From an uncultured Desulfobacteraceae bacterium (GTDB lineage Bacteria; Desulfobacterota; DSM-4660; Desulfatiglandales; HGW-15): a DNA stretch of 39,084 nt. The notes under the pieces are model-generated. The model saw only the letters and a program-made list of their open reading frames with translations. It made no database searches and was not told the DNA's origin. The DNA lies in the NCBI GenBank assembly GCA_964497115.1, contig CAZCCX010000001.1, positions 1 to 39,084 on the forward strand. Reading direction: 5' to 3'. The position numbers and the translations under genes were made by a program. Shown one piece after another: positions 14,250 through 37,674 of the stretch (position 1 is its first letter; every line of letters begins with the position of its first letter).

Positions 14250-14441
14250 GGTATAGCCTCCTTTCATAAACGAATATAGTTATGTGGCACGGATTGATTT
14301 ATGCCTCCATTCTGGCTGTATGCCCCCATCCATTTCGGCCATGATCCTCCTTGCTGTATCGAGTCTATTTCCTCCTGTCCATTTCCGGTGACGGAGCCTC
14401 CTTCAGGAATCCCTTCAACAGCCGTGCTTTGGTTTGAGCCG

Positions 14442-15938: not shown

Positions 15939-16006
15939 AGGCGATCCTTTTCTCTGTTTATGTTCTCAATCTTCGAACCACAAACCAGGCCCTCAGCCTA
16001 CAGACC

Positions 16007-16039
16007 AAAAAAGCGCCCTTGACTGCGGAGCGCCTTTTT
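16007..16039 (-). terminator. Intrinsic-terminator-like hairpin between the REC-REC gene and the activator gene
   Basis: On the minus strand, AAAAAGGCGC-13 nt loop-GCGCTTTTTT forms a 10-bp stem with one G-U pair, followed by a T-run. It lies 32 nt after the REC-REC stop. Confidence 0.45.
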
Positions 16040-16070
16040 CAAGAAGGAGGTGGAGTGAAAGAGAGCATGC

Positions 16071-16874
16071 TTAATGGTTCTTTTTCTTTTTCCCCATTCG
16101 GGCGGCATCTTCCAGGTCCCCTCCGCTGGCCATACCCGCAGCGGCCATGCTGTCTTCGAGGTTTTTCTGAAGCTTCTTCATGAAACTCCAAAAACCCCCC
16201 ATCTGGTCTTTTTCAAAATAATCCGAATTCAAGGCCTCGGCGGCCTCCTTGACCTTCTCATCGCCGAATCCGGTCAGAAGGACGGATTTTATGCGAGGGT
16301 GCATTTCCTTGAGCTTGGAGATGGTAGTCAAGCCGTCCATGCCGGGCATCTTTTGGTCCACGACCGCCGCGTGGATCTTGGTCTTTCGGGCGATCTCGAT
16401 GGCCTCTTCGCCGCTGGTGGCCGGAAACGGCTCAAACCCTTTCAGACGGATTCGTTCCGAGATGGAGTCCAGAAACTTCTTTTCATCGTCCACCAAGAGG
16501 ACATGAAGTCCTTTCTTTCCCATGCCCGTGAGGAAACTCCAGAACCGCCCCATCTCGTCTTTTTCGAAATAGGCCGTATCCAGGGCCTCGGCGGCCTCTT
16601 TGACCTTCTCATCGCCGAATCCGGTCAGAAGGACGGCCTTGATGTGAGGGTGAATTTCCTTGAGCTTGGAGATGGTGGTCAAGCCGTCCATGTCGGGCAT
16701 CTTCAGGTCCACGACCGCCGCGTGGATCTTGGTCTTTCGAGCGATCTCGATGGCCTCTTCGCCGCTGGTGGCCGGAAACGGCTCAAACCCTTTCAGACGG
16801 ATTCGTTCCGAGATGGAGTCCAGAAACTTCTTTTCATCGTCCACCAATAGTACGTTGAATCCGTTTTCTGCCAT
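16071..16874 (-). CDS. Tandem double-receiver protein (REC-REC, no output domain)
   Basis: ORF 16071-16907. The likely ATG is at 16874 (MAENGFNVLLVDDEKKF). Two REC domains lie 117 aa apart and are nearly identical. The C-terminus is a short Gly/Lys-rich tail. Confidence 0.85.
   Translation of the reverse strand: MAENGFNVLLVDDEKKFLDSISERIRLKGFEPFPATSGEEAIEIARKTKIHAAVVDLKMPDMDGLTTISKLKEIHPHIKAVLLTGFGDEKVKEAAEALDTAYFEKDEMGRFWSFLTGMGKKGLHVLLVDDEKKFLDSISERIRLKGFEPFPATSGEEAIEIARKTKIHAAVVDQKMPGMDGLTTISKLKEMHPRIKSVLLTGFGDEKVKEAAEALNSDYFEKDQMGGFWSFMKKLQKNLEDSMAAAGMASGGDLEDAARMGKKKKNH
16182..16853 (-). repeat. 351-nt tandem duplication inside the REC-REC gene
   Basis: For example, GGCTCAAACCCTTTCAGACGGATTCGTTCCGAGATGGAGTCCAGAAACTTCTTTTCATCGTCCACCAA occurs at about 16431-16498 and again at about 16782-16849. 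The period of 351 nt equals 117 codons. Confidence 0.8.
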
Positions 16875-16977
16875 GGCATTGATCCCTTTTTTTAACCTTT
16901 TCTTCAAGAAATAGGCGGATCGTCTAATGACCGCCGCTGCCCAGGATGCCGGAGGCGGCCAAGGACAGGACCGCGAC

Positions 16978-22422: not shown

Positions 22423-23787
22423 CTAGCCTTCCATCCCGTAGCGTTTCAGTTTCCTCCAGAGGGAGACTCGATCGATACCCATGATCTTGGCCGCCCTGGT
22501 TTTGTTTCCGCCGCTTTTTTCCAGGACCCATTTTATATAATGTTTCTCCTGTTCATCGAGTGTGGGGATGGCAGACGGTGTATGACGGTAGGTCTCGATG
22601 GAGAGATTGCGGATAGATTCCGGAAGGTCCGCCGCCCGAACGGTATCGCCGTTCTCCAGGGCCACGGCCCTTTCGATGACGTTCTCCAGTTCCCTGACGT
22701 TCCCGGGCCACCCGTATTGGGTCAGCAGTCCCATGGCCTCCGGGTCGATGTGGCGGATATCTTTGCCCATGGCTTGGCTTTTTTGGGCCAGAAAATGGTT
22801 GGCCAGCAGAGGAATATCGCCTGACCGTTCCGTCAGCGGGGGAAGGCGGATTGTAATCACATTGAGACGATAATAGAGATCCTGTCGGAAATCTTCCGAC
22901 TCCACATCCTCTTTGAGGTTGCGGTGCGTTGCGGAGACAAACCGCACGTCGACCGGGATGGGCGAAAGCCCGCCGACACGCAGCAATTCTTTTTCCTGGA
23001 TGACCCGCAGAAGTTTCACCTGCATGGTTAGGGGCATGTCCCCGACTTCGTCCAGAAAAACGGTGCCGCCGTCGGCAAATTGAAGTAGACCGGCCTTATC
23101 GATCGATGCGCCGGTAAAAGCCCCTTTTTCATGACCAAACAGTTCGTTGGCCATCAACTCTTCGGTAAAAGAACCGCAATTGAATGCCACGAATTTCTTC
23201 GCGGATCGGCCACTCAGATCATGGATCGCCTTGGCGACCAGTTCCTTTCCCGTCCCGCTTTCTCCCAGGAGGAGTATATTCGTGTCCGAAGGGGCGATCT
23301 GCTGAACCGTTTCAAGCACCCCGTTCATGGACTCGCTCCTTCCGACAATGTAAGGAACCCGACTCGCCTTTTCGAGAGAGGCCCGAAGTTCAAGGTTTTC
23401 CATCTGAAGCCTTCGTTTAATCAAGGCCTCCCTGGCGACCTTTCGGACCTCGTCTATTTTATAGGGTTTAGCGATATAGTGATAAGCCCCCTCCTTCATG
23501 GCCTCTACGGCGCTGTCCACCGTTGCATATCCGGTGATCATAATCACCTCGGTGTAAGGCAGCAGGCGCCTGCTCTCCTCCAAGACCTTCATTCCGTCGA
23601 CATTTTCCATCTTGAGGTCAGTGATGACGAGATCAAAGATCGTGGTATTCAAGCACTCCAAGGCCTGCTTACCGTTGTCTACCGAAACGACGTCATAGCC
23701 TTCTTTTTCGAGGATATGCTCCAGATTCCTACGGGCCATATCCTCATCTTCTACGATAAGTATTCTTTCCTTAATGCGCTCCGCCAT
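22423..23787 (-). CDS. Sigma54-dependent response regulator (NtrC family: REC-AAA+-Fis) with canonical GAFTGA
   Basis: ORF 22423-23991. The likely ATG at 23787 (MAERIKERILIVEDE) overlaps the kinase stop by 17 nt. Motifs: GESGTGKE, GHEKGAFTGA, GGTVFLDEVGD, WPGNVRELEN, and the HTH GNKTRAAKIMGIDRVSLWRKLKRYG. Confidence 0.9.
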   Translation of the reverse strand: MAERIKERILIVEDEDMARRNLEHILEKEGYDVVSVDNGKQALECLNTTIFDLVITDLKMENVDGMKVLEESRRLLPYTEVIMITGYATVDSAVEAMKEGAYHYIAKPYKIDEVRKVAREALIKRRLQMENLELRASLEKASRVPYIVGRSESMNGVLETVQQIAPSDTNILLLGESGTGKELVAKAIHDLSGRSAKKFVAFNCGSFTEELMANELFGHEKGAFTGASIDKAGLLQFADGGTVFLDEVGDMPLTMQVKLLRVIQEKELLRVGGLSPIPVDVRFVSATHRNLKEDVESEDFRQDLYYRLNVITIRLPPLTERSGDIPLLANHFLAQKSQAMGKDIRHIDPEAMGLLTQYGWPGNVRELENVIERAVALENGDTVRAADLPESIRNLSIETYRHTPSAIPTLDEQEKHYIKWVLEKSGGNKTRAAKIMGIDRVSLWRKLKRYGMEG

Positions 23788-25282
23788 CTTCTTCTGTGAA
23801 GGGCAAGAAAACTGAAAATATCGTTCCTTCTCCCAGTTCGCTCTCGACCTCCATTCGCCCTCCGTGCTGCTCCAGTATGCCGTGGCAGATGGAAAGACCC
23901 AGTCCGGTGCCCCCTTGTTCCAATAGACTGTGCGAAGATGCGCCTGTTCGGACACTGCCGGCGACATCTTTAGTGCTGAAAAAAGGATCAAAGATTCTCG
24001 GGATGTCTTCTTCCGGAATGCCTTTTCCGGTGTCCTCCACCTGGAGATAGAATAACGCTTCCTCCTCTATCTTGCCGGCCCTGATGGTCAATCTCCCCCC
24101 GTCATTTTCCATGGCCTGCAAGCCGTTCAAGATCAGGTTGAGCAGGACCTGCTGAATCCTGCGACCATCCATATTCCCCTGGATGTCCTCAGGCACATTC
24201 ACGCTCAGTTCCACGTCTGCCGGCAGGTCGCCTTTTATCAGTTTAATGGTATCGTCCACAAGACTCTTCAGGGGCACCCGTTTCAAGCTGAATGTCCTTT
24301 CCCGGGAAAACTCCAGAAGTGCCTTGACAATGTCCCTCGCCCTATCGACCTGTTTTTCCGTTTCAGTCAGGAGCTGTCTCTTGTAATCCAGATCGGCCTC
24401 CTCCAATTCTTCCAACAGGATTTGTACCGAGGTGGAGATATTGTTCAAGGGATTGTTCAGTTCGTGGGCCACACCGGAGGTCAAGGTTCCCAGAGATGCC
24501 AGCTTTTCCGAATGGATAAGGCGTTCACTTCGCCTGTTCAGTTCTTTAATCATGTTGTTTAAACTGGTCACCAGGGTTTCAAATTCGTCGCCGGTTCCGA
24601 TCTCGGGGATGCTTTCATAGTCTCCCGCGGCAATCTTGTGAATGGCATTTTCGATGGCCTTGAGGGGGCGGTTGACGTTGAAGATCAGAAATAGAACGGC
24701 CAGAACGGATAAAACGATCATCCCTGCCAAGGCCATGAAATGATAAAGACTCGACTCTTTCATCAGCCTTTTGACATATTGGTGCTCTTTGTTGACCATC
24801 TTTTCCACATCGGTCGTCACGATTCTTCCGAGCGATTCGGTCTCGTTATGTGCACTTGATAAATCTCCGGTTGGCGTTTCGGCCGCTTTCAAGGCGCCGT
24901 CGTCCCGATAAAAACCCAGCACGGCGATCAGAGAATCCTTGTACCGTTGAATTTCGCCTATTATCTGGTCCAGGTTTTTTGCAGCCGTGTATTTCCCGTA
25001 ATAATCAACAATGTAGTGCATCTTCTCTTCGGCCTGTAGGATATAGGAAAGCGCGGACTTCAGGCTATTGACATCTAAGGAGAGGAAGTAGTTTTTTTCA
25101 TATCTCCGGGCCTCGAGTATGGTGTTGAGGAGGACGTCTTTCTCCTCGATGATCTGAAGTTTGCGATTAAGGATATCGTGTTTGTAGTAATTCAAAAACC
25201 ATATGAGTCCACCCGCCAGGATAAAGGCGGCAAAGGCAATCATGACTTTTCTTCTAATACTGGTCTTCATGGCCGATTCCAA
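23771..25282 (-). CDS. Sensor histidine kinase (2 TM, helical periplasmic sensor, HAMP, HisKA, HATPase)
   Basis: TM1 VMIAFAAFILAGGLIWFL, a helical loop of about 150 aa (EARRYEKNYFL), then TM2 FMALAGMIVLSVLAVLFLIF. HAMP (NRPLKAIENAIHKIAAGDY), H-box GVAHELNNPLNNI, N-box LLNLILNGLQAM, G1 DTGKGI, G2 GTGLGLS. Confidence 0.85.
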   Translation of the reverse strand: MESAMKTSIRRKVMIAFAAFILAGGLIWFLNYYKHDILNRKLQIIEEKDVLLNTILEARRYEKNYFLSLDVNSLKSALSYILQAEEKMHYIVDYYGKYTAAKNLDQIIGEIQRYKDSLIAVLGFYRDDGALKAAETPTGDLSSAHNETESLGRIVTTDVEKMVNKEHQYVKRLMKESSLYHFMALAGMIVLSVLAVLFLIFNVNRPLKAIENAIHKIAAGDYESIPEIGTGDEFETLVTSLNNMIKELNRRSERLIHSEKLASLGTLTSGVAHELNNPLNNISTSVQILLEELEEADLDYKRQLLTETEKQVDRARDIVKALLEFSRERTFSLKRVPLKSLVDDTIKLIKGDLPADVELSVNVPEDIQGNMDGRRIQQVLLNLILNGLQAMENDGGRLTIRAGKIEEEALFYLQVEDTGKGIPEEDIPRIFDPFFSTKDVAGSVRTGASSHSLLEQGGTGLGLSICHGILEQHGGRMEVESELGEGTIFSVFLPFTEEDGGAH

Positions 25283-26240: not shown

Positions 26241-28055
26241 TTATTGAATTCCGTAAAAGAAATAGATGATTGTCAGCTCAACGACCAAGAAGATCACCGT
26301 CATTACGGCGCCCGCCTTGGCATAGTCGATCGTCCGATATCCCCCGGGTCTCATGATCAGGGCATTGACCTGGTGGGTCGGCAGGACAAAGGTGTTGGAG
26401 GCGGAAAGACCCACCACGAGTGCGGCCATCCGCGGGTCTCCACCGGCCATGACCGCCATATTCATACAGAGGGGAACCAGCAGGACCGTGGCGCCCACAT
26501 TGGAAACTACAAGGGTGAAAAAGGATGTCATCAGGCCGACCACGGCGAGGAGCACGATGGGAGAGGGTTGACCGATGAGGGCCAGGACCCTGTTGGCGAT
26601 GAAGGCGGCGGTGCCCGTTTTCTCAAAGGCGATCCCTAACGGGATGAGACCGGCCAGCAAGAAAACTGTCATCCAGTCCACGGCCCGGTAGGCTTCGTCC
26701 ACCGAGAGGACCCCTGTGATGATCATACCCAGGGCCCCGGACATCAGGGCCACCGAGAGCTGGATTTTGAGAAAAATAATCTGTGCCAGGGCCACGGCCA
26801 GCCACAACACGGCCAGTTTCGCTTTCTTGGGCCGCATGATCTCCCCCTCCAGCGGTGTGGCAAAGCTAAGCGCCCTGGGTTGCGGCCTGTTTTTCAGGAT
26901 GTGGAACCTCTCCCAGGGCCCCTGAAGGAGGAGTGTGTCACCCATTCTAAGAGGGACATGGGTGAGTCCGCTGTAAAAGATCTTATTCCCCTTGAACAGT
27001 GCAACGGGGTTGACGCCGTAGAGTTCCTTGAAATTGACCTCGCTCATCGTCTTGCCGATGAGTTCGGAGCGCGGGGAGACGATGGTCTCCGCCATTCCCG
27101 CATTGGTCCTGGACAGGTTCTCGACAAACACTTCAAGACCCTCCTTGATCTCCCACCCATACTCCTTGGCCAACTTCCTGACGTTTTTCTCTCTTCCTAC
27201 AACGGCAATGTCATCGCCGGCAAGGATCTGATCGATGCTTCGTGGAACAAAATTCTTTTCTTTTCGGGCGGCATGGCCGATACCCACCACGGTGACAAGG
27301 AACCATTGCCTGACCCCCAAATCCTCCAGGGTTCGCGGTCCCTTGAAACCGTCGGGGACATGGAGTTCGAAAATGGTCCCCAAGGCCCGGTATTCCTCCA
27401 TTAGGGCGGCCGTCACACCCTTGTCTGTATTACCTTCGCCTTCCGGGAGGATGAACCTGCCAAACAGGACAAAATAGAGGATCGCACTGGCAAGGAGGCA
27501 AATACCGATGGGCGTTTGTGTGAACAGGCCGAAGGGTTCCAATTCTTTGCCCCCCAGCACCATCAGATCGTTCAAGAGAATCGTGGGACTGGCGCCGACC
27601 AGGGTAATGGTCCCCCCGATAATGGCACAAAACCCCATGGGCATGAGGATTCGGGAGACGGGGATTTCCATTCGTTTCGCGATTCGCTGGGCAGCCGGTA
27701 GAAAGAGGGCGGCCGCCCCGATATTCTGCATCAAGCTGGAGATCAGCCCCACAGTCCCGGCGATAAGGGTGGTGACCCTCTTTTCACTCTTTCCCGCCAA
27801 CTTGATGATGGGACCGGCGACCTGATTCATCACACCGGTCTTATCCAGGCCGGCGCCGATAATGATAACGGCAATGATGGAACAGACCGCATTGCTGCTT
27901 AGGCCGACAAAGGCCTCTTGCGGGGAGACAAGACCGATCAGGGGCAAAAGAACCATCATCATGATTCCGACCACATCCACTCTCACCCACTCAAAGACAA
28001 ACAGGACAATCACGAAGACAAGCACAACCATCGTCATCAACATCTCAGGTGTCAT
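26241..28055 (-). CDS. SLC13/DASS-superfamily permease with two central TrkA-C (RCK_C) domains
   Basis: ORF 26241-28064. The ATG at 28055 lies 8 nt downstream of AAGGAG. Polytopic N- and C-terminal halves flank a soluble insert of about 180 aa with two RCK_C-like units (LEDLGVRQWFLVTVVGI...DDIAVVG and FKELYGVNPVALFK...GDTLLLQG). Confidence 0.85.
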   Translation of the reverse strand: MTPEMLMTMVVLVFVIVLFVFEWVRVDVVGIMMMVLLPLIGLVSPQEAFVGLSSNAVCSIIAVIIIGAGLDKTGVMNQVAGPIIKLAGKSEKRVTTLIAGTVGLISSLMQNIGAAALFLPAAQRIAKRMEIPVSRILMPMGFCAIIGGTITLVGASPTILLNDLMVLGGKELEPFGLFTQTPIGICLLASAILYFVLFGRFILPEGEGNTDKGVTAALMEEYRALGTIFELHVPDGFKGPRTLEDLGVRQWFLVTVVGIGHAARKEKNFVPRSIDQILAGDDIAVVGREKNVRKLAKEYGWEIKEGLEVFVENLSRTNAGMAETIVSPRSELIGKTMSEVNFKELYGVNPVALFKGNKIFYSGLTHVPLRMGDTLLLQGPWERFHILKNRPQPRALSFATPLEGEIMRPKKAKLAVLWLAVALAQIIFLKIQLSVALMSGALGMIITGVLSVDEAYRAVDWMTVFLLAGLIPLGIAFEKTGTAAFIANRVLALIGQPSPIVLLAVVGLMTSFFTLVVSNVGATVLLVPLCMNMAVMAGGDPRMAALVVGLSASNTFVLPTHQVNALIMRPGGYRTIDYAKAGAVMTVIFLVVELTIIYFFYGIQ

Positions 28056-28157
28056 TCGCCACACTCCTTTTCCATTCTCAAGGTCCGGATGGGTCTCATC
28101 CTTTAGAACACCGCTGCATTAAGAAAGCCCGCTTCTATTCTCTATTCTATTACACCC

Positions 28158-28247: not shown

Positions 28248-28805
28248 CTAGAGCATTGAATAGACATAAACAGGCTGGGCAGGCCTTTCTCCCTCCTCGG
28301 TCCTGTTCACAAGCCCTTCTTGTTCCGCGTCGGAGACCACAAACTCGATGTCCTTGAATTCGTGAGTGATTTCTGCAAGGGCTTGATCCCTTTCACTGAA
28401 TTTGATCGCATGTGCAAAGGGGACGCCGAGCCTTTCGGCTTCCTTCCTGAATTCTCTCACGTTCTCTTCGGCGAGGGCGCGAAAGTCTTGGCAGAGCTGT
28501 TTGTGAGAGGAAGAAAACATCTTGAAGGTCTCAGAGGATAAAGGGGTCGTGTTCAAGGCCAATATCTCGTAGGACATTCTTTGGGCCATCTCCAGGGAAT
28601 AATCGATGACTCTCCTCGAAAAAGCGCTTTCCCGGCCGATCACGAGGAGTCTGCCGGGGTGTTCTTCAGTCATCTCTTCTTGGAATAGCTTGCGGGCGGA
28701 TTCCTGTTCTCCTGCCTCGGCAAATGCGATAGCCTCCTGCACCCGGTCCATCTTTTTACTGAGCCGGGTTGCCTTTTTCTTGAGTAAACCGAAGATTCGC
28801 GTCAT
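28248..28805 (-). CDS. USP-like protein with N-terminal basic segment and FAEAGE helix
   Basis: GGAGG RBS 9 nt upstream. N-terminus KKKATRLSKKMDRVQEAIAFAEAGEQESARKL. A USP-like core follows (RLLVIGRESAFSRRVIDYSLEMAQRMSYEILALN ... IEFVVSD). Confidence 0.6.
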   Translation of the reverse strand: MTRIFGLLKKKATRLSKKMDRVQEAIAFAEAGEQESARKLFQEEMTEEHPGRLLVIGRESAFSRRVIDYSLEMAQRMSYEILALNTTPLSSETFKMFSSSHKQLCQDFRALAEENVREFRKEAERLGVPFAHAIKFSERDQALAEITHEFKDIEFVVSDAEQEGLVNRTEEGERPAQPVYVYSML

Positions 28806-28855: not shown

Positions 28856-29362
28856 TCAATCCCGCACGACCACCAGGGGGGTGGCCAGGTTCTGCCTGAT
28901 CTGTCTGGGCACCACATGGCGTCTCGGTTTGCCCGCCCCGCCCGGATCCGCATCCTGTCCTTCGTCATAGATGGTGAGCACCACATCCCTGTTTTTTTGA
29001 ACGTAATGAATAACTTCTTCGTCCGCTATGCCGTACTTCAGAGTCAGGTGAAAGGGGACCCCCGCATTTTCTGATTCGGGCAGGAGTTCATTAAGGTTCT
29101 TGCGAGCCTCGACCATAAGCCGGCCCGCCGTTTCATGTTCTCCCGCCTCGGCAAAGGTCACGGCCATCATGGACCCTTCAAGGTATTTCTTGACCACCTC
29201 CACGCGCCGGTGCACTTTCTTGAGATACGCATTGTAACGACCGGTCCTGATAATCTGCAGCACATTCAGTTCCATTTTCAAGCGCTGGCAGAGCTGCACG
29301 GCCTGGTGAAAGACCTTTCGCGTCGGTTTGACCCCGTCTATGGCCAACAAGACCTTTTCCAT
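28856..29362 (-). CDS. Universal stress protein family protein with internal FAEAGE insert
   Basis: KVLLAIDGVKPTRKVFHQAVQLCQRLKMELNVLQII, then the insert MMAVTFAEAGEHETAGRL, then the USP C-terminal half (EEVIHYVQKNRDVVLTIYD ... PLVVVRD). Confidence 0.7.
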   Translation of the reverse strand: MEKVLLAIDGVKPTRKVFHQAVQLCQRLKMELNVLQIIRTGRYNAYLKKVHRRVEVVKKYLEGSMMAVTFAEAGEHETAGRLMVEARKNLNELLPESENAGVPFHLTLKYGIADEEVIHYVQKNRDVVLTIYDEGQDADPGGAGKPRRHVVPRQIRQNLATPLVVVRD

Positions 29363-29373
29363 CGTCCCGACCT

Positions 29374-29559
29374 CTATACTCTCAAAACAGGGCGGTCTTC
29401 CACCCTTCGTTCCGCCCTTGGCCTGCTCTTTTTGCGGTTCTTTTTCATCGGTCTCTCATTCAAAAAAGCAAGGGCGGTCTTCCGGTCGCCGGCCTCGGCA
29501 AAGGTGATAGCGACCATCAGCCTATCGAGCCAGTTTAATGGTGTCTTTTCCCCGGTCAT
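29374..29559 (-). CDS. Small protein (61 aa) consisting of a FAEAGD helix plus a basic tail
   Basis: ORF 29374-29625, but the first 22 codons overlap the sigma54 promoter. The ATG at 29559 has a GGAGG 6 nt upstream. Translation: MTGEKTPLNWLDRLMVAITFAEAGDRKTALAFLNERPMKKNRKKSRPRAERRVEDRPVLRV. Confidence 0.5.
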   Translation of the reverse strand: MTGEKTPLNWLDRLMVAITFAEAGDRKTALAFLNERPMKKNRKKSRPRAERRVEDRPVLRV

Positions 29560-29607
29560 TTTCATCCTCCTCTGGTGGATGTTGATGTGGTGACTTGCCC
29601 CATCATT

Positions 29608-29626
29608 GAGCAATAGATGTGCCATT
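29608..29626 (-). promoter_or_regulatory. Consensus sigma54 (-24/-12) promoter driving the FAEAG/USP operon
   Basis: The minus strand reads AATGGCACATCTATTGCTC. TGGCAC is at 29624-29619, followed by 5 nt and then TTGC at 29613-29610. This is an exact match to TGGCAC-N5-TTGC with GG-N10-GC spacing. It lies about 50 nt upstream of the ATG at 29559. Confidence 0.7.
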
Positions 29627-29711
29627 ATCCCTTAAGGTGGCATATCTATTTGATATAATTACTTAAACTCGTAGAGAAGCGGATGAGAGAGACAAAACAC
29701 TATTGTTGCGC

Positions 29712-29778
29712 TTTGTAACGGATAGGGTGCATTGTATAATTTTTATTTTGATATCAAATGGTTATGAAGCGTTACAAA
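29712..29778. promoter_or_regulatory. Inverted repeats upstream of the sigma54 promoter (candidate activator-binding sites) overlapping a possible Lon promoter
   Basis: Perfect palindrome TTTGATATCAAA (29747-29758). A 9-nt inverted pair: TTTGTAACG (29712-29720) and CGTTACAAA (29770-29778). TTGTAA-16 nt-TATAAT (29713-29740) faces the Lon gene. The region lies 90-170 bp upstream of the -24/-12 element. Confidence 0.35.
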
Positions 29779-29954
29779 AAGGAAAGGGGTGTTTCAGATT
29801 GCAACAGGTTGGCGGCTTGAGATGATATCGGGTCACCGAAGAGGTGAAAGATATCTGTCTTGCGGAGGAATAGTTGGGCCTGTCGATAAAACTCGCTTGC
29901 GAAAGAAGCCTGCGGCATCTAATATAGTATCATGCGAAGAATCCTGGAGGGCCC

Positions 29955-32036
29955 ATGCGAATATTCAAAAAGGATGTAGAGATGGAGGAACTTCCCGGTG
30001 ATATCGAAGAACTCCGTGAGACCGTGCTCAAGGCCAGGATGCCGCCCGATGTAGAAACGGTGGCCCTCAAAGAGACTGCAAAACTGTCCAAAATGAGCCC
30101 CTCCTCTGCCGAATATACCATTGGCACCAACTATATCAGCTACCTCGTTGGTCTTCCCTGGAACAGGGTCACGGAAGACAATCTGGATATGAAACGGGCG
30201 GAGTCTATTCTTGATGAACAGCATTTCGGCCTCAGGGAGGTCAAGGATCGAATCCTGGAGCACTTGGCGGTCAGGATCATGAGATTGAGCCGAAGCCACC
30301 GGATCCTGGTCGTTGACGACGAAAAAATGACCCGCAAGAATCTGGACCACGTCCTCACGAAGGAAGGGTTCAGTGTGGTGACCGCCGCCAGCGGTGCGGA
30401 GGCCGTCGAATACCTGGATAAGGACGATTTTGATGTGGTTGTGACGGATTTCAAGATGGAAAAGGTGGACGGCATGGGGGTCCTGGAGAAGACCAAGGCG
30501 AAGGATCCGGGTATCGAGGTCATCATGATCACCGGCTACGCCACGGTGCCGACAGCCGTAGAGGCTATGAAGAAAGGGTCTTATCAATTTCTCTCCAAAC
30601 CGCTGAAGCTCGATGAGATCAGGTTGACGGTCAGCAATGCCCTGTCCAAAAAGAATGCCCGATTAGGCTCGCGAGGACCCGCTCTCTGTTTTGTCGGGCC
30701 GCCCGGCACGGGGAAGACATCACTGGGCATGTCTATTGCCAGGAGTCTTGAGAGAAAATTCATCCGCATGTCTCTGGCAGGGATGAAGGATGAGGCCCAA
30801 ATCAGGGGTCATCGGCGAAGCTATGTGGGGGCCCTGCCGGGACGCATTATTCAGGAGATCCGGCGGATCGAGACCAGAAACCCGGTTTTCATGCTGGATG
30901 AGCTGGACAAGATCGGGCAGGACTTCAAGGGAGACCCTGCATCGGCCCTGTTGGAAGTCTTGGACCCTGAGCAGAATAGTCACTTCATGGATCATTACCT
31001 GGATGTGCCCTTTGATCTTTCCAGCGTGATGTTTATCGCCACGGCCAATACTATTGATCCCATACCCGCCCCACTTCTGGACCGTCTGGAGATCCTTCGG
31101 CTCTCCGGTTATTCGGAGGAAGAAAAACAGAAAATTGCTTTCAGCTATTTGATTCCCAGAGAGATTGAAGAGGCGGGGCTCTCGGATCACCCCCCCGTCT
31201 TTGCCCCTGAGGCCGCGCATAAGATCATCAGGGAATACACAAGGGAAGCGGGGCTCAGGAACCTCCAGAGGCAGATTGCCTCAATCTGCAGGAAGATGGC
31301 CAGAGAGACGTTACAGAATGAGGGGCGGATGGCGACGGAAGTGATTACCCCGGAACGGGTCGAGGCGTGGCTTGGACCCAGGAAATACTATTTCGAAGTG
31401 GCCGAGGCCAAGGAACGAGTCGGCGTGGCCACGGGCCTGGCCTGGACCGAGGCGGGGGGAGAGATCATTTTCATAGAAGCTACCAAGATGCGCGGACGAG
31501 GCCGGCTGATCTTGACCGGGTCTCTCGGGGAGGTCATGAAGGAGTCTGCACAGGCGGCATTGAGTTATATCCGGAGCCACACCCGAACGCTGAATATTGC
31601 GGAGGATTTTTTTGACGATTGCGACTTGCATATCCATATTCCCGCCGGCGCCATCCCCAAGGACGGCCCCTCCGCCGGACTGACCATCGCTGTTTCCCTC
31701 ATCTCACTCCTCACCGACCGGCCGAGCAAACGGGAGGTGGCCCTGAGTGGAGAATTGACGTTGAGCGGGAGGCTGCTCCCTGTGGGGGGCGTGAAAGAAA
31801 AGGCCATGGCCGCTCATAGAGCGGGTGTGAAATGCGTGGTCTTTCCGGCCAAAAACAAGGCGGACCTGCGTGAGATCCCGGAAGATATCGAAAAGGAGTT
31901 AGAAATTATTACCGTGAACGAACTGGAAGAAATTGTGGATCTGGTCCTGAAGCCAGTAGAACCTTCAGGTGCGATAACGCCATCGCGTGTTAAACCTTCA
32001 ATCAAGAAGTCCCCTTTCTCGCCTGCTGTGCGTTGA
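29955..32036 (+). CDS. lon: LonA-type ATP-dependent protease lacking the LON N-domain and carrying an inserted response-regulator receiver domain
   Basis: GGAGG RBS. Residues 1-112 match the helical segment preceding the Lon AAA+ module ([32 protein letters not shown]). Residues about 116-233 form a REC domain ([32 protein letters not shown]). Then Walker [10 protein letters not shown], Walker [25 protein letters not shown], catalytic Ser in PKDGPSAGL and catalytic Lys in GGVKEK. Confidence 0.9.
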
Positions 32037-32303: not shown

Positions 32304-32348
32304 TTCCAGGGACCAGAACGGACTGCCGAACACAAAAAATGATTTTTG

Positions 32349-34135
32349 ATGATGAAAAAGCGGCCGAATAATCTTCATTTGAGCCCTGCGGAACTGATCC
32401 GTGGGGCAACCCCTCAAAAAAAGCGCCTGAATCAGTGGCTCGCAACGGCCATATGCGGCAATGATATCACTTCATCCTGTCTTTACGTCGCAGCCATCGC
32501 ATCTGTTTATGCTGGCGTACTCGCCCCCCTGGTCCTGCTTATGGTGGGGGGCGTCCTCTATTTATACAAAAAAATCTACACCGAGGTCGTGGAGGCCCTC
32601 CCACTGAACGGCGGGGCGTACAATTGTCTCCTCAACAGCACATCAAAATTTAGCGCTTCATTGGCTGCCTGCATGACCATTCTTTCCTACATTGCTACAG
32701 CAGTCATATCCGCCAAGACGGCAGTTGAGTATCTTCACGACCTTGTCCCTTCAATTCCTATTACTGAGACGACAGTTGGCATCCTCGGCATTTTTGCCTT
32801 GCTGACTATCCGGGGAATTACGGAATCGGCCATAGTCGCCCTTATTATTTTTATATTTCACATCACTATCCTCATTGCCTTCTGTGTACTGGGTTTTTCC
32901 AGTTTTCCTTTGGATTTTCATATCCTTCGAGCGAATCTTCTCACAATGCCTCATGGAGACGGGTTGCTGATGGCTGTTTTTCTGGGGTTTTCTTCGGCTC
33001 TTCTGGGGGTGAGGGGCTTTGAAAGTTCGGCCAATTTTGTCGAGCAGCAAGACCAAGGGGTGTTTCGTAAGACTCTACGAAACATGCTTGTGGCGGTCGT
33101 TATTTTCAACCCCTTAACTTCCATCATCGCCCTAAATCTATTGCCATTAAAAGAAATCGTTGAACATAAGGATTATCTCCTTGCTCATGTAGCTCTGGCA
33201 CAGGGGGACACCTATTCATGGTGCTGGTTATAGTTGATGCTGTGGCCGTCCTGTCGGGGGCTGTTCTCACCAGTTTTATGGGTGTTACGGGTCTGATACA
33301 TCGTATGTCGCTGGATCAATGCTTTCCTCAGTTTCTGTTGAAAGCAAACAGTCGCGGCACTTTTCACCGCATCGTCATCGGTTTCTTTTTGCTTTGTTCT
33401 TCCATTTTATTGATCACAGGCGGGAACCTACTTAATCTTGCCGGTGTTTACACCATCTCCTTTCTTGGAGTCATGACCCTGTTCGGATTGGGTAACATAC
33501 TTTTGAAGATAACAAGAAGGGAGCTCAAGCGGACTTATCGGGCCGGATGGATGACTGTTCTTGTTGCCATTATGGCAATCAGCCTCGGAATCGCAGGTAA
33601 TATCGTTATCGATCTCAACAATTTTTTCTATTTTCTGGATTATTTCATCCCTGCCGTTCTGGTGGTTGCCCTCATGTACCTTCGTATCCCTATCTTGAAG
33701 TCTGTCTTGATGATGGCCAATTACACGATGACCAAACTCCTTGTATGGCGGAGCAGTATTATAGACCGGATTTCAGAGATCAAAAATCAAGGGGTCATTC
33801 TGTTTACAAGGGGAGGCCGCTTGGACCTTCTGCATGAGGCTTTCACCTATATCATCAAGAATGAAAGCAGTCGTCATGTCATACTGGTACATCTTTACAA
33901 CTCACCTGATAACAATGAAGAAAAGACTATAAAAGAGGCGTTAAATTCCCTCAATCAGATATTCCCTTCTCTTGAGGTAGAACTTGTTGTCAGGGAAGAC
34001 CGATTCGGACCCGAGATTATCGAAACACTTTCTCGCGAGTTTGGGGTGCTCAAAAACAACATGTTTATCGGTGCGCCGGAAGAGAAACACAATTTCTCCG
34101 TCCAAGATCTCGGTGGGGTCCTCATTATCTTCTAA
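32349..34135 (+). pseudogene. APC-superfamily amino acid/cation permease with cytoplasmic C-terminal domain, interrupted by a -1 frameshift at a G5 run
   Basis: ORFs 32346-33233 and 33218-34135 are the N- and C-terminal parts of one permease (ICGNDITSSCLY, LPLNGGAYN ... IVDAVAVLSGAVLTSFMGVTGLIHRMSLDQCFPQFLL). Adding one G to GGGGG at 33203-33207 joins them as ...VALAQGGHLFMVLVIVDA.... Confidence 0.7.
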
Positions 34136-34867: not shown

Positions 34868-36226
34868 GTGAAAATCATCATTGTCGGTGCCGGTGAAGTC
34901 GGTTATCACATCGCACAGAAGCTTTCCGAAGAAAACCAGGACGTCTTTCTGATAGATAAGGCCCCTGAGAAGGTCAAGCGTATCACCGAGAACCTGGATA
35001 TCCAGGCCACTGTGGGATCAGGGACCAGCCCTCGAATGCTGAGGAACTCCGGCGTCGGCGAAGCGGAACTTCTCGTCGCCGCGACAGACAGTGACGAGGC
35101 CAATCTGATAGCCTGTTTGTTTGCACGCCACCTGAACCCTCATATTCTCAAAGTGGCCCGCGTGCGCAATCCCGAATATCTGGAAGAAAAGGACCTCCTC
35201 TCCCAGGATTTCCTGGCTATTGATCACATCATTAATCCGGAATCCGTCATGGTTGAAACCATCTTGACCCTGATGACGGTGCCGGGGGCCTCCGACGTCA
35301 TTGATCTTGCCGATGGACGAGTCAAGTTGTTCGGAGTCACCATTCGGCTGGATTCCCCCCTTGTAGGTCGCCGTCTTCTTTCCTTTAAGAAACCGGAGGG
35401 AAAACTTCTTGTCGGGGCCATTGTGCGTGGAGATCAAGTCATTATTCCCCGGGGTGAAGATACCCTTCAGGCCCATGACCTGGCCTATGTGGTCGGCAGA
35501 ACGGATGAACTTCCTGATCTGTTTAAGCTCCTAGATATCCAAGTCGAAGAATCCAGAAGGGTGATCATTGTCGGAGCCGGGCTCACCGGTACGGCACTGG
35601 CAACGGCCCTGGACAAGACCAAGGTCAATGTGAAGATTCTCGACAGGGATAACCAGCGGTGTACAGACCTGGCTGATAAACTGGAACGCGTGATTGTTAT
35701 TAACGGAGACGGGTCGGACAGAGCCCTGCTGGAAGAAGAGAATATCAGGGATTGCGATTTCATGGTTGCAGTCACAGATGATGAAGAACACAATGTCATG
35801 ATCTCACTCCTGGCAAAAGGGTTGGGGGCCAAGAACACCGTCACGCGCATCAGCAAGTTCAGTTATATTCCCCTGGTCTCCGCCATCGGCCTTGATGCCA
35901 TCGTGAGCCCGAGACTCTCCGCCGTCAGGGCCATCCTCCAATACATTAGAAAGGGTAAAATCATCTCCGTCGCCCCGTTAAAGGGAGAGCATGCCGAGGT
36001 GATCGAGGCCGAGGCCCTGGAGACCTCCAAAATCATAGACGTCCCACTTTCAAATGTGAATTTCCCCAAAGGGGCGCTTCTGGGGGCCATCGTCCGCGAC
36101 GGGGAGATCATTATTCCGCGAGGCGACAGTGTGGTCAAGCCAAAGGACCGGCTGATTATCTTCACCCTCAGAGAGGCGGTTCCGAAACTGGAAAGGCTAC
36201 TTACCGTTAGACTGGAGCACTTCTAA
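34868..36226 (+). CDS. trkA: Trk potassium uptake system NAD-binding subunit TrkA (two TrkA-N + two TrkA-C)
   Basis: GTG start. Two Rossmann motifs (IIIVGAGEVG and VIIVGAGLTG), each followed by an RCK_C unit. The stop overlaps the trkH ATG (TAATG). Confidence 0.9.
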   Translation: MKIIIVGAGEVGYHIAQKLSEENQDVFLIDKAPEKVKRITENLDIQATVGSGTSPRMLRNSGVGEAELLVAATDSDEANLIACLFARHLNPHILKVARVRNPEYLEEKDLLSQDFLAIDHIINPESVMVETILTLMTVPGASDVIDLADGRVKLFGVTIRLDSPLVGRRLLSFKKPEGKLLVGAIVRGDQVIIPRGEDTLQAHDLAYVVGRTDELPDLFKLLDIQVEESRRVIIVGAGLTGTALATALDKTKVNVKILDRDNQRCTDLADKLERVIVINGDGSDRALLEEENIRDCDFMVAVTDDEEHNVMISLLAKGLGAKNTVTRISKFSYIPLVSAIGLDAIVSPRLSAVRAILQYIRKGKIISVAPLKGEHAEVIEAEALETSKIIDVPLSNVNFPKGALLGAIVRDGEIIIPRGDSVVKPKDRLIIFTLREAVPKLERLLTVRLEHF

Positions 36227-37674
36227 TGCACCCCAAACTCATCCTTCGATTCATAGGAATCCTCTTTCTTTTTCTGGGCCTGTCTATGGCCGTACCCCTG
36301 ACGGCGTCGCTCATCTATGAAGAGGGCAGCGCCTGGGCCCTCCTTGACTCCCTCTTGATCACCTGCGGCATGGGCCTCTTGTTCTTTATCGGCGCCCGAA
36401 AGAATGAAGTGCCCCATCTGAACCATCGCGACGGCGTGGCCATTGTGACCTTGGGGTGGGCAGCCGCGGGCCTCGCAGGGGCCGTTCCCTTTCTTCTTTC
36501 AGGCGCCATACACGGGTTTACCCACGCATACTTTGAATCCATCTCCGGGTTTACCACCACCGGGGCATCCATACTCTCGGATATAGAAGGTCTTCCCAAG
36601 GGGATCCTGCTCTGGAGAAGCCTGATCCAGTGGTTCGGAGGGATGGGAATCATTGTCCTCTCCATCGCCATCCTTCCTTTTCTAGGGGTTGGGGGCATGC
36701 AGCTCTATAAGGCCGAAGTCCCCAGCCCTGTGGTGGACAAGCTGAAGCCCAGGATATCAGACACGGCCAAGACCCTCTGGAAGGTCTATGTGTCGATTAC
36801 GGTCCTTCAGGTCATCCTCTTGCTGGCAGGGGGCATGTCCCTTTTTGATGCCCTGTGTCATGCCTTTTGCACGATGCCCACCGGCGGATTCTCCCCTTAT
36901 AACACGAGTATTGCCCACTACAATAGCGCCTATTTTGATGGTGTTATTATTGTCTTTATGCTCCTTGCGGGGATCAACTTCTCCCTGCACTACAGACTGA
37001 TCAAGGGTGAGTTCACGCTCTTCGGGAAAGATCCCGAATGTCGTGTTTTCCTCTCTCTGGTCGCTCTGTTTATTGTCCTTGTCACCTTCGATATACATGG
37101 AACCGTCTACGACTCCCTCTCCAAGGCCTTTCGGTATGCCGCCTTTCAAGTGAGTTCCATAGTCACCACCACGGGCTTTGTCACCGCGGATTACGATCAA
37201 TGGCCGGCCTTTTCGAAAATACTCCTGCTCCTGTGCATGTTTCTCGGGGCCATGGCTGGTTCCACCGGCGGCGGCATGAAGATCATGCGCATCATGCTGC
37301 TTGTGAAGCATTGTTATCACGAAATATTTCGAATCATACATCCTCACGCGATCACATCGGTCAAACTGGGGAAAAAACCGGTTCCGGCAGAAGTGTTGAG
37401 CAGTGTCTGGGGGTTCTTTCTCCTTTTCTTGGGTCTATTTCTTGTGGCCACCCTGATCATGGCATCCCTTGGGCTGGACATGATCTCTGCAATCGGCTCC
37501 GTGGCCGCATCCATCGGCAATATCGGTCCCGGCCTGGGACTCGTGGGGCCAACCCAAAACTATGTCGCCATTCCTTTTGTCGGGAAATGGGTCCTGATCA
37601 TTTGTATGCTCTTGGGACGACTGGAACTCTATACGGTCATTGTCTTACTGATGCCCGCATATTGGAGAAAGTAG
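36226..37674 (+). CDS. trkH: Trk-type potassium transporter membrane subunit TrkH
   Basis: 482-aa polytopic protein with TrkH/KtrB selectivity-filter-like repeats (SGFTTTGAS, CTMPTGGFS, VTTTGF, MAGSTGGGMK). Translationally coupled to trkA. Confidence 0.9.
   Translation: MHPKLILRFIGILFLFLGLSMAVPLTASLIYEEGSAWALLDSLLITCGMGLLFFIGARKNEVPHLNHRDGVAIVTLGWAAAGLAGAVPFLLSGAIHGFTHAYFESISGFTTTGASILSDIEGLPKGILLWRSLIQWFGGMGIIVLSIAILPFLGVGGMQLYKAEVPSPVVDKLKPRISDTAKTLWKVYVSITVLQVILLLAGGMSLFDALCHAFCTMPTGGFSPYNTSIAHYNSAYFDGVIIVFMLLAGINFSLHYRLIKGEFTLFGKDPECRVFLSLVALFIVLVTFDIHGTVYDSLSKAFRYAAFQVSSIVTTTGFVTADYDQWPAFSKILLLLCMFLGAMAGSTGGGMKIMRIMLLVKHCYHEIFRIIHPHAITSVKLGKKPVPAEVLSSVWGFFLLFLGLFLVATLIMASLGLDMISAIGSVAASIGNIGPGLGLVGPTQNYVAIPFVGKWVLIICMLLGRLELYTVIVLLMPAYWRK

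What the first reader, a model, noticed from the sequence alone, without database searches (positions are those of the whole stretch)
29955..32036. Lon protease with a receiver domain inserted before the AAA+ module and no LON substrate-binding domain
**Seen in the sequence.**
- The protein starts directly in the helical segment that normally lies after the Lon N-domain ([29 protein letters not shown] ... [20 protein letters not shown]).
- Residues about 116-233 (nt 30300-30653) then form a complete CheY-like receiver. All canonical positions are present: DD121-122, the phospho-acceptor D165 in [10 protein letters not shown]193 in IMITGY and K215 in LSKP.
- Only after the receiver come Walker A (GPPGTGKTS), Walker B (DELDK), the Lon Ser (PKDGPSAG) and the Lon Lys (GGVKEK).
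- The upstream 29560-29954 region is promoter DNA and encodes no LON N-domain.

**Established knowledge.**
- From memory, E. coli LonA has only about 15-20 residues between DRILEYLAV and GPPGVGKT.
- The N-domain is the main substrate and degron recognition module.

**Inference.** Protease activity or substrate gating may be controlled by phosphorylation rather than by the usual N-domain. I do not know of a characterised example.
Basis: partly seen in the sequence, partly recalled or inferred. Interest (0 to 1): 0.8.

Follow-up and report, generated by a model that had tools for sequence, protein, structure and literature searches.

The report
Receiver-domain Lon protease, DVU3303 type
This gene encodes an intact Lon protease that has lost its usual substrate-binding head and carries a phosphorylation-sensing receiver domain inserted just before its ATPase motor; the design is common in sulfate-reducing bacteria and was noted in Desulfovibrio vulgaris in 2011, but its biochemistry has never been tested.

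Summary
ORF 29955-32036 (+, 693 aa) scores as Response_reg (res 117-225, E 4e-28), AAA, Lon_lid and Lon_C, with no LON N-domain. Residues 11-110 and 239-683 align to Thermus Lon 245-344 and 351-793, so a complete receiver replaces a ~6-residue loop.

It is not an assembly chimera. More than 360 protein clusters from three orders of Desulfobacterota, including cultured isolates and complete genomes, share the architecture. D121, D122, D165, K215, Walker A/B, Arg finger, pore-loop Tyr, Ser573 and Lys616 are invariant.

It is not new as a kind. D. vulgaris DVU3303 ("protease La, truncation") was described in 2011 as a response regulator containing a Lon protease. It works with a histidine kinase and a sigma-54 activator, and transposon fitness data (2023) link the three genes.

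The window holds the same set: kinase, sigma-54 activator, a perfect sigma-54 promoter, Usp-like small proteins and an anion transporter. The Lon receiver is 53% identical to the activator's receiver and forms its sister clade.

Most likely this is one kinase feeding two outputs, transcription and a phospho-switched protease. No biochemistry exists, so the direction and mechanism of the switch are inferred.

The parts
29955..32036 (+). REC-Lon gene (693 aa): an N-domain-less LonA with an inserted receiver domain
   Evidence: ORF. Pfam and NCBIfam domain hits. More than 360 homologous clusters share the same architecture.
29955..30299 (+). Residues 1-115. A disordered tail with the conserved MxxFKK N-terminus, then five helices (15-26, 31-45, 52-66, 79-89, 94-111). 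These correspond to the helical bundle and pre-AAA+ helix that follow the Lon N-domain.
   Evidence: Aligns to 7p6u residues 245-344 and to residues 6-102 of the N-truncated B. subtilis Lon construct 3m6a. AF2 secondary structure. M1 and F4 are at least 90% conserved.
30300..30653 (+). CheY-like receiver domain (residues 116-233). The phospho-acceptor D165 codon is at 30447-30449.
   Evidence: Response_reg E 3.8e-28. The AF2 model shows a (beta-alpha)5 fold. D121, D122, D165 and K215 are invariant and T193 is at least 90% conserved. The best solved relatives are the NtrC1, NtrC4 and DctD receivers.
30669..31322 (+). Lon AAA+ module (residues 239-456): Walker A K254, pore-loop Y290, Walker B D315/E316, sensor-1 N365, Arg finger R377, sensor-2 R435, and the lid.
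   Evidence: Pfam AAA and Lon_lid hits. All listed residues are invariant in 81 sequences. The functional role of each residue is assigned by homology to E. coli Lon from established knowledge.
31344..31949 (+). Lon_C (S16) protease domain, residues 464-665. The S573 codon is at 31671-31673 and the K616 codon at 31800-31802.
   Evidence: Lon_C E 7.7e-84. S573 and K616 are invariant.
29610..29624 (-). Perfect sigma-54 promoter TGGCAC-ATCTA-TTGC driving the divergent operon
   Evidence: An equivalent perfect site lies in locus L001. The D. vulgaris activator DVU3305 binds the equivalent intergenic region.
29713..29740 (+). Sigma-70-like promoter candidate for the lon gene (TTGTAA-16-TATAAT, 10 of 12 matches)
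   Evidence: This is a consensus match only.
29374..29565 (-). Small protein 1 (~63 aa) carrying the FAEAGD motif. It is the first gene of the sigma-54 operon.
   Evidence: Conserved in L001. No family hit.
28856..29362 (-). 168-aa protein, weakly Usp-like, carrying the FAEAGE motif
   Evidence: Pfam Usp E 4e-4, below the curated cutoff. Conserved in L001.
28248..28805 (-). 185-aa protein carrying the FAEAGE motif
   Evidence: Conserved in L001, L002 and L004. No family hit.
26241..28064 (-). Anion transporter (CitMHS/DASS family with TrkA_C domains). It is the probable counterpart of the D. vulgaris target DVU3299.
   Evidence: 57-82% identical copies lie beside REC-Lon in L001, L002 and L005. 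The DVU3299 role comes from PMC10102598.
23771..25270 (-). Histidine kinase (HAMP-HisKA-HATPase_c), the presumed phosphodonor
   Evidence: Orthologues lie within about 7 kb of REC-Lon in all 7 related loci.
22423..23787 (-). Sigma-54 activator (REC-Sigma54_activat-HTH_8), the second response regulator of the system
   Evidence: The start codon was refined. Its REC is 53% identical to the Lon REC and forms the sister clade.

Best explanation
What it is. The gene is an orthologue-type member of the DVU3303 family of 'receiver-Lon' proteases of Desulfobacterota. It is a catalytically intact LonA paralogue that lacks the globular N-terminal substrate-binding domain. A CheY-like receiver of the NtrC1/DctD type is spliced into the short surface loop between the pre-AAA+ helix and strand beta-1 of the ATPase core. 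Each connector is only about 4 residues long.

The system. It is one arm of a branched two-component ('three-component') system:
- The HAMP histidine kinase (23771-25270) phosphorylates two receivers of common descent.
- One receiver belongs to the sigma-54 activator (22423-23787). That activator fires the sigma-54 promoter at 29624-29610 and expresses the small Usp-like proteins, the anion transporter, and the kinase and activator themselves.
- The other receiver is D165 of the Lon.

Inferred mechanism. Phosphorylation rearranges the conserved alpha4-beta5-alpha5 face of the receiver. Helix alpha5 ends only ~9 residues before the P-loop, and six receivers sit where the N-domains normally brace the ring. 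The change would therefore switch ring assembly and/or ATPase-coupled proteolysis. I consider activation the more likely direction. One stress signal would then drive both new transcription and targeted proteolysis.

Shown versus inferred. Shown: architecture, conservation, gene linkage, promoter, receiver relatedness. Inferred: phosphotransfer from this kinase, the effect on activity, its direction, and the substrates.
For: - Architecture.
- Fold: the AF2 model from an 81-sequence alignment has pLDDT 82 and pTM 0.76. Helix 94-111 is followed by 4 residues and then REC beta-1 at 116. REC alpha5 (219-238) is followed by 4 residues and then AAA+ beta-1 at 243.
- Real and widespread: all 120 best hits carry PF00072+AAA+Lon_C in each of three searches. 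These cover Desulfobacterales, Desulfobulbales including Desulfobulbus propionicus DSM 2032, and Desulfovibrionales including Halodesulfovibrio aestuarii and Desulfocurvibacter africanus. A complete genome, CP070768, also has it.
- Purifying selection on both functions: D121, D122, D165, K215, K254, Y290, D315, E316, N365, R377, R435, S573 and K616 are invariant in 81 sequences at 48-92% identity.
- Linkage: a kinase and a sigma-54 activator lie within about 7 kb in all 7 REC-Lon loci plus the window. The arrangement differs between loci (divergent, same-strand lon-HK-EBP, convergent).
- Shared kinase and common origin: the Lon REC is 53% identical to the neighbouring activator's REC, against 32% to two other RECs in the window. 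In a neighbour-joining tree the Lon RECs and partner-activator RECs are sister clades.
- Promoter: perfect sigma-54 sites in the window and L001.
- Literature: DVU3303 as a Lon-containing response regulator with HK DVU3304 and activator DVU3305, induced by stress (PMC3333781). Cofitness above 0.9 (PMC10102598).
- The insertion site is a permissive loop: an acidobacterial Lon has an ~80-residue low-complexity insert at the same position.
Against: - There is no biochemical evidence anywhere that the receiver is phosphorylated or that phosphorylation changes Lon activity. The direction of control is a guess.
- The D. vulgaris cofitness may partly reflect polarity, because DVU3303 is the first gene of the lon-HK-activator operon.
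- NtrC1/DctD receivers act through a coiled-coil linker, which is absent here (the linker is 4 residues). The analogy with control of AAA+ ring assembly is therefore loose.
- I had no coordinates or hexamer model, so the position of the receiver relative to subunit interfaces is inferred.
- I could not retrieve the DVU3303 sequence itself. Identity of kind rests on the papers' descriptions plus Desulfovibrionales homologues at 50-53% identity.
Confidence: 0.6

Rival explanations
1. The receiver is a substrate- or partner-recruiting module rather than an allosteric switch. It would heterodimerise through alpha4-beta5-alpha5 with the closely related receiver of the sigma-54 activator. This would replace the lost N-domain and deliver the activator (or proteins bound to it) to the Lon pore, giving proteolytic feedback on the pathway.
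For: - The Lon REC and the partner-activator REC are sister clades with 45-53% identity.
- The alpha4-beta5-alpha5 stretch is the most conserved receiver surface (A196, T197, A201, A204, G208, L213, K215, P216, L219 invariant).
- The normal substrate-recognition domain is missing.
Against: - If Lon destroyed the active activator, a lon mutant should behave opposite to the activator mutant. In D. vulgaris all three genes have the same fitness pattern, although polarity could mask the difference.
- The similarity of the two receivers is equally explained by sharing one kinase.
- No interaction was tested.
Confidence: 0.2
2. The receiver acts mainly as a phosphate sink or competitor that tunes phosphorylation of the activator. 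The Lon moiety would be constitutively active and indifferent to the receiver's state.
For: Branched systems with a second receiver acting as a sink are established in other bacteria (general knowledge). Both receivers probably share one kinase.
Against: - A sink does not need to be spliced by 4-residue connectors into the ATPase core.
- A sink would not need to stay fused to an intact protease across three orders.
- The switch residues T193 and the aromatic residue at 212 are kept.
Confidence: 0.1
3. The receiver is a structural brace only, a pseudo-receiver. It would substitute for the N-domain in holding the hexamer together with no signalling role.
For: N-truncated Lon constructs start at the same position (3m6a, 4ypl). 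From general knowledge, loss of the N-domain weakens hexamers and protein degradation.
Against: - Pseudo-receivers usually lose acidic-pocket residues. Here D121, D122, D165, T193 and K215 are all conserved.
- A kinase is always nearby.
Confidence: 0.08
4. The architecture is an assembly or gene-calling artefact, that is, a chimera of a response regulator gene and a lon gene.
For: None was found.
Against: - The same single ORF occurs in hundreds of independent assemblies, isolates and complete genomes.
- The junction sequences are conserved.
Confidence: 0.01

Closest known systems
DVU3303 of Desulfovibrio vulgaris Hildenborough (with HK DVU3304 and sigma-54 activator DVU3305)
   Same: - It is described as a response regulator containing a Lon protease and was annotated 'protease La, truncation'.
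- It is partnered with a kinase and a sigma-54 activator.
- It lies next to a divergent sigma-54 operon of hypothetical/UspA-like proteins and an anion transporter (DVU3298-3302).
- The hypothesis of phosphorylation-dependent proteolysis has already been stated for it.
   Different: - In D. vulgaris lon-HK-activator form one operon. Here the HK and activator sit at the end of the divergent operon and lon is on its own, followed by a split permease gene and trkAH.
- Desulfovibrionales relatives are about 50% identical.
- The DVU3303 sequence itself could not be compared.
Canonical LonA (E. coli, B. subtilis, Thermus and Meiothermus Lon; human LONP1)
   Same: - 50-60% identity over the helical bundle, AAA+ module, lid and S16 protease.
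- All catalytic and pore residues are present.
- TIGR00763 scores above its cutoff.
- The best structural matches are LonA chains.
   Different: - There is no PF02190 N-domain (about 240 residues missing).
- There is a 128-residue receiver insertion between the pre-AAA+ helix and beta-1.
- It is probably an accessory paralogue rather than the housekeeping Lon (inference).
NtrC1/NtrC4/DctD-type sigma-54 activators (receiver controlling an AAA+ ring)
   Same: The receiver is most similar to theirs (E 1e-18 to 3e-24). The layout has a receiver immediately N-terminal to an AAA+ core. The neighbouring activator is of this class.
   Different: - No coiled-coil linker.
- No sigma-54 interaction domain and no HTH.
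- The AAA+ module is Lon's and feeds a protease chamber.
Response regulators that control AAA+ proteases in trans (CpdR with ClpXP in Caulobacter; RssB with ClpXP in E. coli)
   Same: Two-component phosphorylation decides what an AAA+ protease degrades (established knowledge). NCBIfam shows CpdR- and RssB-like receiver similarity.
   Different: Those are separate adaptor proteins acting on ClpX. Here the receiver is covalently built into the protease subunit.
Ser/Thr phosphorylation switch on Xanthomonas Lon (PMC5784255)
   Same: Lon activity is modulated by phosphorylation (title and abstract seen).
   Different: That case involves phosphorylation of a residue of a canonical Lon. It has no receiver domain or histidine kinase.

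Membership tests
LonA / endopeptidase La (MEROPS S16) | AAA+ module with Walker A/B, sensor and Arg-finger residues, plus the Lon lid | tested here: met
   Pfam AAA 244-381 and Lon_lid 405-456. K254, D315, E316, N365, R377 and R435 are invariant.
LonA / endopeptidase La (MEROPS S16) | C-terminal S16 protease domain with a Ser-Lys dyad | tested here: met
   Lon_C E 7.7e-84. S573 and K616 are invariant.
LonA / endopeptidase La (MEROPS S16) | Whole-protein score above the curated equivalog cutoff (TIGR00763) | tested here: met
   731 bits against a cutoff of 608, in two stretches split by the receiver. The E. coli-type model NF008053 scores 596 against a cutoff of 891, which is not met.
LonA / endopeptidase La (MEROPS S16) | N-terminal LON substrate-binding domain (PF02190) | tested here: not met
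   No hit at E<=0.01. The protein begins at the position equivalent to Thermus Lon residue ~245. No such ORF exists in the window.
CheY-like receiver / response regulator | Receiver fold with the acidic pocket (DD, D), a Thr/Ser and a Lys | tested here: met
   Response_reg E 3.8e-28. D121, D122, D165, T193 and K215 are present. The AF2 model shows a (beta-alpha)5 fold.
CheY-like receiver / response regulator | Phosphorylation by a cognate histidine kinase | not testable with these tools
   Only indirect support: the kinase is linked in 8 of 8 loci, and the receiver is sister to the partner activator's receiver.
DVU3303-type receiver-Lon of a three-component system | Receiver plus Lon AAA+ and protease in one polypeptide, without the Lon N-domain | tested here: met
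   DVU3303 is described as a response regulator containing a Lon protease and was annotated as a 'truncation'.
DVU3303-type receiver-Lon of a three-component system | Genomic linkage to a histidine kinase and a sigma-54 activator, with an adjacent sigma-54 operon of Usp-like/hypothetical proteins and an anion transporter | tested here: met
   compared.
DVU3303-type receiver-Lon of a three-component system | Direct sequence orthology to DVU3303 | not tested
   The DVU3303 sequence could not be obtained. Desulfovibrionales members (L004, L007, the P0390 clade) are 50-53% identical with the same architecture.
NtrC1/DctD-type bacterial enhancer-binding proteins | Sigma-54 interaction AAA+ domain (GAFTGA loop) and a DNA-binding HTH | tested here: not met
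   No Sigma54_activat or HTH_8 hit in the Lon protein. Only the receiver resembles this family.
LonB / LonC | LonB has a membrane anchor inserted in the AAA+ module. LonC has a degenerate ATPase. | tested here: not met
   LonB models score far below their cutoffs (102 against 517, and 86 against 723). The Walker motifs are intact.

The most novel reading that the evidence does not exclude
The receiver is a true allosteric phospho-switch built into an AAA+ protease subunit. Phosphorylation-driven pairing of the six receivers would take over the ring-bracing and gating role of the missing N-domains. A histidine kinase would then directly turn a Lon machine on or off. This would be the first demonstrated case of a two-component receiver fused in cis to an energy-dependent protease, possibly with the sibling sigma-54 activator or the co-regulated FAEAGE/Usp-like proteins as dedicated substrates.
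Probability: 0.5. Interest if true: 0.7.

Novelty: new member of a known kind. Interest (0 to 1): 0.45.

Why it matters
Regulated proteolysis by Lon is normally controlled through substrates, adaptors or small ligands. A receiver domain wired directly into the ATPase core would be a cis-acting, kinase-controlled protease switch. It would link a sigma-54 transcriptional response and proteolysis to one signal.

The family is abundant in sulfate reducers and has genetic phenotypes in D. vulgaris (chlorate fitness, stress induction), but no biochemistry. It is a ready-made system for asking how the Lon N-terminal region controls ring assembly and gating.

For genome annotation, these proteins are currently named inconsistently as 'endopeptidase La', 'S16 family serine protease' or 'response regulator'.

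Tried and rejected
1. Chimeric assembly. Rejected, because the architecture recurs in hundreds of independent contigs, isolates and complete genomes.
2. A separately encoded LON N-domain nearby. None was found in any ORF of the window.
3. Measuring family breadth with the 50%-identity representative library. This was uninformative:
   - Canonical Lons outscore divergent REC-Lons.
   - Only P0122 and three fragments surfaced.
   - The high-scoring long proteins turned out to be tandem-AAA+ Lons without a receiver.
4. Genome scan with the full-length alignment:
   - Only 6 new REC-Lon loci were recovered.
   - Distribution outside Desulfobacterota (claimed for Thermodesulfovibrio, Thioalkalivibrio and Dechloromonas in PMC3333781) was not verified.
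5. L058 (Acidobacteriota) looked like a distant REC-Lon by length. It is a canonical Lon with a low-complexity insert at the same site.
6. A sigma-54 promoter in front of lon itself. In the window only a weak mirror-image site and a sigma-70-like candidate were found. Weak candidates lie upstream of lon in L002 and L003, and none in L004-L007.
7. Family assignment for the three small FAEAGE proteins. None in Pfam or NCBIfam beyond one sub-threshold Usp hit.
8. Literature searches for a biochemical study of receiver-Lon proteins found none. One search was poorly targeted.
9. Model coordinates are not exposed, so the orientation of the receiver relative to the ring could not be measured.
Full report
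**1. The observation**

The ORF at 29955-32036 (+) encodes 693 residues. It has a plausible ribosome-binding site and an in-frame stop just upstream.

Domain hits:
- Pfam finds Response_reg at 117-225 (E 3.8e-28), AAA at 244-381, Lon_lid at 405-456 and Lon_C at 464-665 (E 7.7e-84). There is no LON_substr_bdg hit.
- NCBIfam's endopeptidase La model TIGR00763 scores 731 bits against a cutoff of 608, in two stretches.

There are two refinements. The nucleophile is S573. The catalytic lysine is K616, the second K of GGVKEK, because K614 is Arg in one clade.

Against solved structures, residues 11-110 align to Thermus thermophilus Lon 245-344 and residues 239-683 to 351-793. About 128 residues therefore occupy a loop that has about 6 residues in canonical LonA. 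The protein starts where crystallographers' N-truncated Lon constructs (3m6a, 4ypl) start.

No ORF in the window encodes a stand-alone LON N-domain.

**2. It is real and conserved**

Three homology searches each returned 120 best clusters, all about 665-680 aa and all carrying PF00072 together with AAA, Lon_lid and Lon_C:
- a Desulfobacterales clade at 71-99% identity;
- a Desulfobulbales clade that includes Desulfobulbus propionicus DSM 2032;
- a Desulfovibrionales clade that includes Halodesulfovibrio aestuarii, Desulfocurvibacter africanus and Desulfovermiculus.

A complete Desulfobacterales chromosome (CP070768) has the gene. Desulfobacter vibrioformis DSM 8776 has it too. An assembly chimera is excluded.

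In an 81-sequence alignment spanning 48-92% identity to the window protein, the following are invariant:
- receiver residues D121, D122, D165 and K215 (T193 is at least 90% conserved);
- ATPase residues K254, Y290, D315, E316, N365, R377 and R435;
- protease residues S573 and K616.

Both the signalling function and the proteolytic function are therefore under purifying selection.

**3. Structure**

With the 81-sequence alignment, AlphaFold2 gives mean pLDDT 82 and pTM 0.76. A shallower alignment gave 75 and 0.57.

The model shows, in order:
- a disordered N-terminal tail (1-14);
- five helices, the last spanning 94-111;
- four residues, then a (beta-alpha)5 receiver (beta-1 at 116-120, alpha-5 at 219-238);
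- four residues, then AAA+ beta-1 at 243-247, with the P-loop beginning at G248.

Fold search returns only canonical LonA and LONP1 chains. No solved structure has a receiver at this position.

An acidobacterial Lon (L058) has an ~80-residue low-complexity insert at exactly the same site. This suggests the loop tolerates insertions.

The receiver's N and C termini lie together, opposite the phosphorylation site (general knowledge of the CheY fold). This suits a plug-in insertion.

**4. Surroundings**

Diverging from lon on the minus strand are:
- three small proteins sharing an (I/V)(T/A)FAEAG(E/D) motif, one of them weakly Usp-like;
- a CitMHS/DASS anion transporter with TrkA_C domains;
- a cytidylate-kinase-like protein;
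- a HAMP-HisKA-HATPase_c histidine kinase;
- a REC-Sigma54_activat-HTH_8 activator.

A perfect sigma-54 promoter (TGGCAC-N5-TTGC) lies on the minus strand at 29624-29610, in front of the first small gene. The same feature is present in L001. Downstream of lon are a split amino-acid permease gene and trkA-trkH. That side is not conserved in L001.

In all seven related REC-Lon loci examined, an orthologous kinase and activator lie within about 7 kb. The arrangements differ: divergent, lon-HK-activator on one strand, or convergent. Linkage that survives rearrangement argues for functional coupling.

The Lon receiver is 53% identical to the neighbouring activator's receiver. It is 32% identical to two other receivers in the window.

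In a neighbour-joining tree, the eight Lon receivers form one clade that is sister to the eight partner-activator receivers. Other receivers from the same loci fall outside. This fits a single ancestral duplication of the activator-type receiver and continued use of one kinase.

**5. What is already known**

Rajeev et al. [quoted passage not shown] They report that:
- it forms a three-component system with kinase DVU3304 and sigma-54 activator DVU3305;
- the activator binds the intergenic region and controls both its own operon and the divergent DVU3302-3298 genes (membrane and hypothetical proteins, some UspA-like);
- the genes respond to high pH, heat and stationary phase;

The older annotation of DVU3303 is 'ATP-dependent protease La, truncation'.

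Kazakov et al. 2015 (PMC4641369) list the regulon.

Trotter et al. 2023 (PMC10102598) report pairwise cofitness above 0.9 for DVU3303:DVU3305, a chlorate phenotype, and the anion transporter DVU3299 as a likely effector.

The window therefore contains a Desulfobacterales version of a system already recognised and genetically linked in Desulfovibrio. I found no biochemical or structural study.

**6. Mechanism**

Shown:
- an intact Lon motor and protease;
- an intact receiver spliced by very short connectors next to the P-loop;
- loss of the N-domain;
- a linked kinase and a sibling receiver on a sigma-54 activator;
- a sigma-54-driven neighbouring operon.

Inferred:
- The kinase phosphorylates both receivers.
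- Phosphorylation remodels the conserved alpha4-beta5-alpha5 face. A196, T197, A201, A204, G208, L213, K215, P216 and L219 are invariant.
- This switches Lon ring assembly and/or ATPase-coupled degradation.

The receiver's nearest solved relatives are those of NtrC1, NtrC4 and DctD. In those proteins receiver dimers control assembly of an AAA+ ring (established knowledge). The coiled-coil linker they use is absent here, so the analogy is loose.

In canonical Lon the N-domains brace the hexamer and recognise substrates (established knowledge). Six receivers at that position could take over bracing in a phosphorylation-dependent way.

The direction of control and the substrates are unknown. I favour activation, in line with the matching phenotypes in D. 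vulgaris. Those phenotypes could be polar effects, because lon is the first gene of that operon.

Rivals:
- The receiver recruits the sibling activator as a substrate.
- It is a phosphate sink.
- It is a structural brace only.

**7. Verdict**

The finding is a new member of a known but biochemically uncharacterised kind. It is interesting as an experimental system, but it is not a discovery of a new architecture.

Noticed in passing
window 29610-29653: The perfect minus-strand sigma-54 promoter (GCAATAGATGTGCCA on the + strand) is mirrored 13 nt away by TGGCATATCTATTTGA on the + strand. Together they form a 13-bp near-perfect inverted repeat. The + copy overlaps an extended -10-like TGATATAAT (29648-29656). 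It could be a weak second sigma-54 site facing lon, or a protein-binding palindrome.
   Followed up: partly
window 29712-29720 and 29770-29778: Inverted repeat TTTGTAACG / CGTTACAAA, about 50 nt apart, flanks the sigma-70-like promoter candidate upstream of lon. It may be an activator or regulator binding site.
   Followed up: no
window 29374-29565, 28856-29362, 28248-28805 (all -): Three consecutive small proteins share an (I/V)(T/A)FAEAG(E/D) motif and have no Pfam or NCBIfam family beyond one sub-threshold Usp hit. They head the sigma-54 operon and are conserved next to REC-Lon in L001. They are candidate substrates or partners of the protease.
   Followed up: partly
window 29955-29996 (residues 1-14): The N-terminus MxxFKK/MxxFRR (M1, F4) is conserved across all three orders yet predicted disordered (pLDDT below 50). 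It could be a functional tail, for example for autoregulation or docking.
   Followed up: no
window 32346-34135 (+): An amino-acid permease (AA_permease_2) is split into two overlapping ORFs (32346-33233 and 33218-34135) that match profile positions 1-255 and 275-405. This is a frameshift, meaning either a pseudogene or a sequencing error.
   Followed up: partly
window 34868-37674 (+): trkA-trkH potassium uptake genes lie downstream of lon. In D. vulgaris the partner activator DVU3305 also targets the kdp potassium operon. The system may be linked to potassium or osmotic homeostasis.
   Followed up: no
window 13752-16907 (-): A cluster of closely related receivers: a single-domain response regulator (13752-14267), a sigma-54 activator (14442-15938), and a protein with two tandem receivers (16071-16907). 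Their alignments to the Lon REC are almost identical to one another, which suggests recent local duplications.
   Followed up: no
L058:10001-11944 (Acidobacteriota MAG): A Lon with an ~80-residue low-complexity (Ala/Ser/Glu/Pro-rich) insert at exactly the loop where the receiver sits in REC-Lon. The site appears to be an insertion hotspot.
   Followed up: partly
proteins P0121, P0124, P0126, P0128, P0129, P0132, P0137 (representative library): Lon-like proteins of 890-1380 aa with two or three tandem AAA+/Lon_lid modules before a single Lon_C. They are either a real tandem-ATPase Lon variant or assembly or gene-call artefacts.
   Followed up: partly
window 29919-30587 (-), 30140-30532 (-), 30720-31220 (-): Long antisense ORFs of 130-222 aa run across the lon gene. 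They have no support and are most likely by-products of the G+C-rich coding strand.
   Followed up: no
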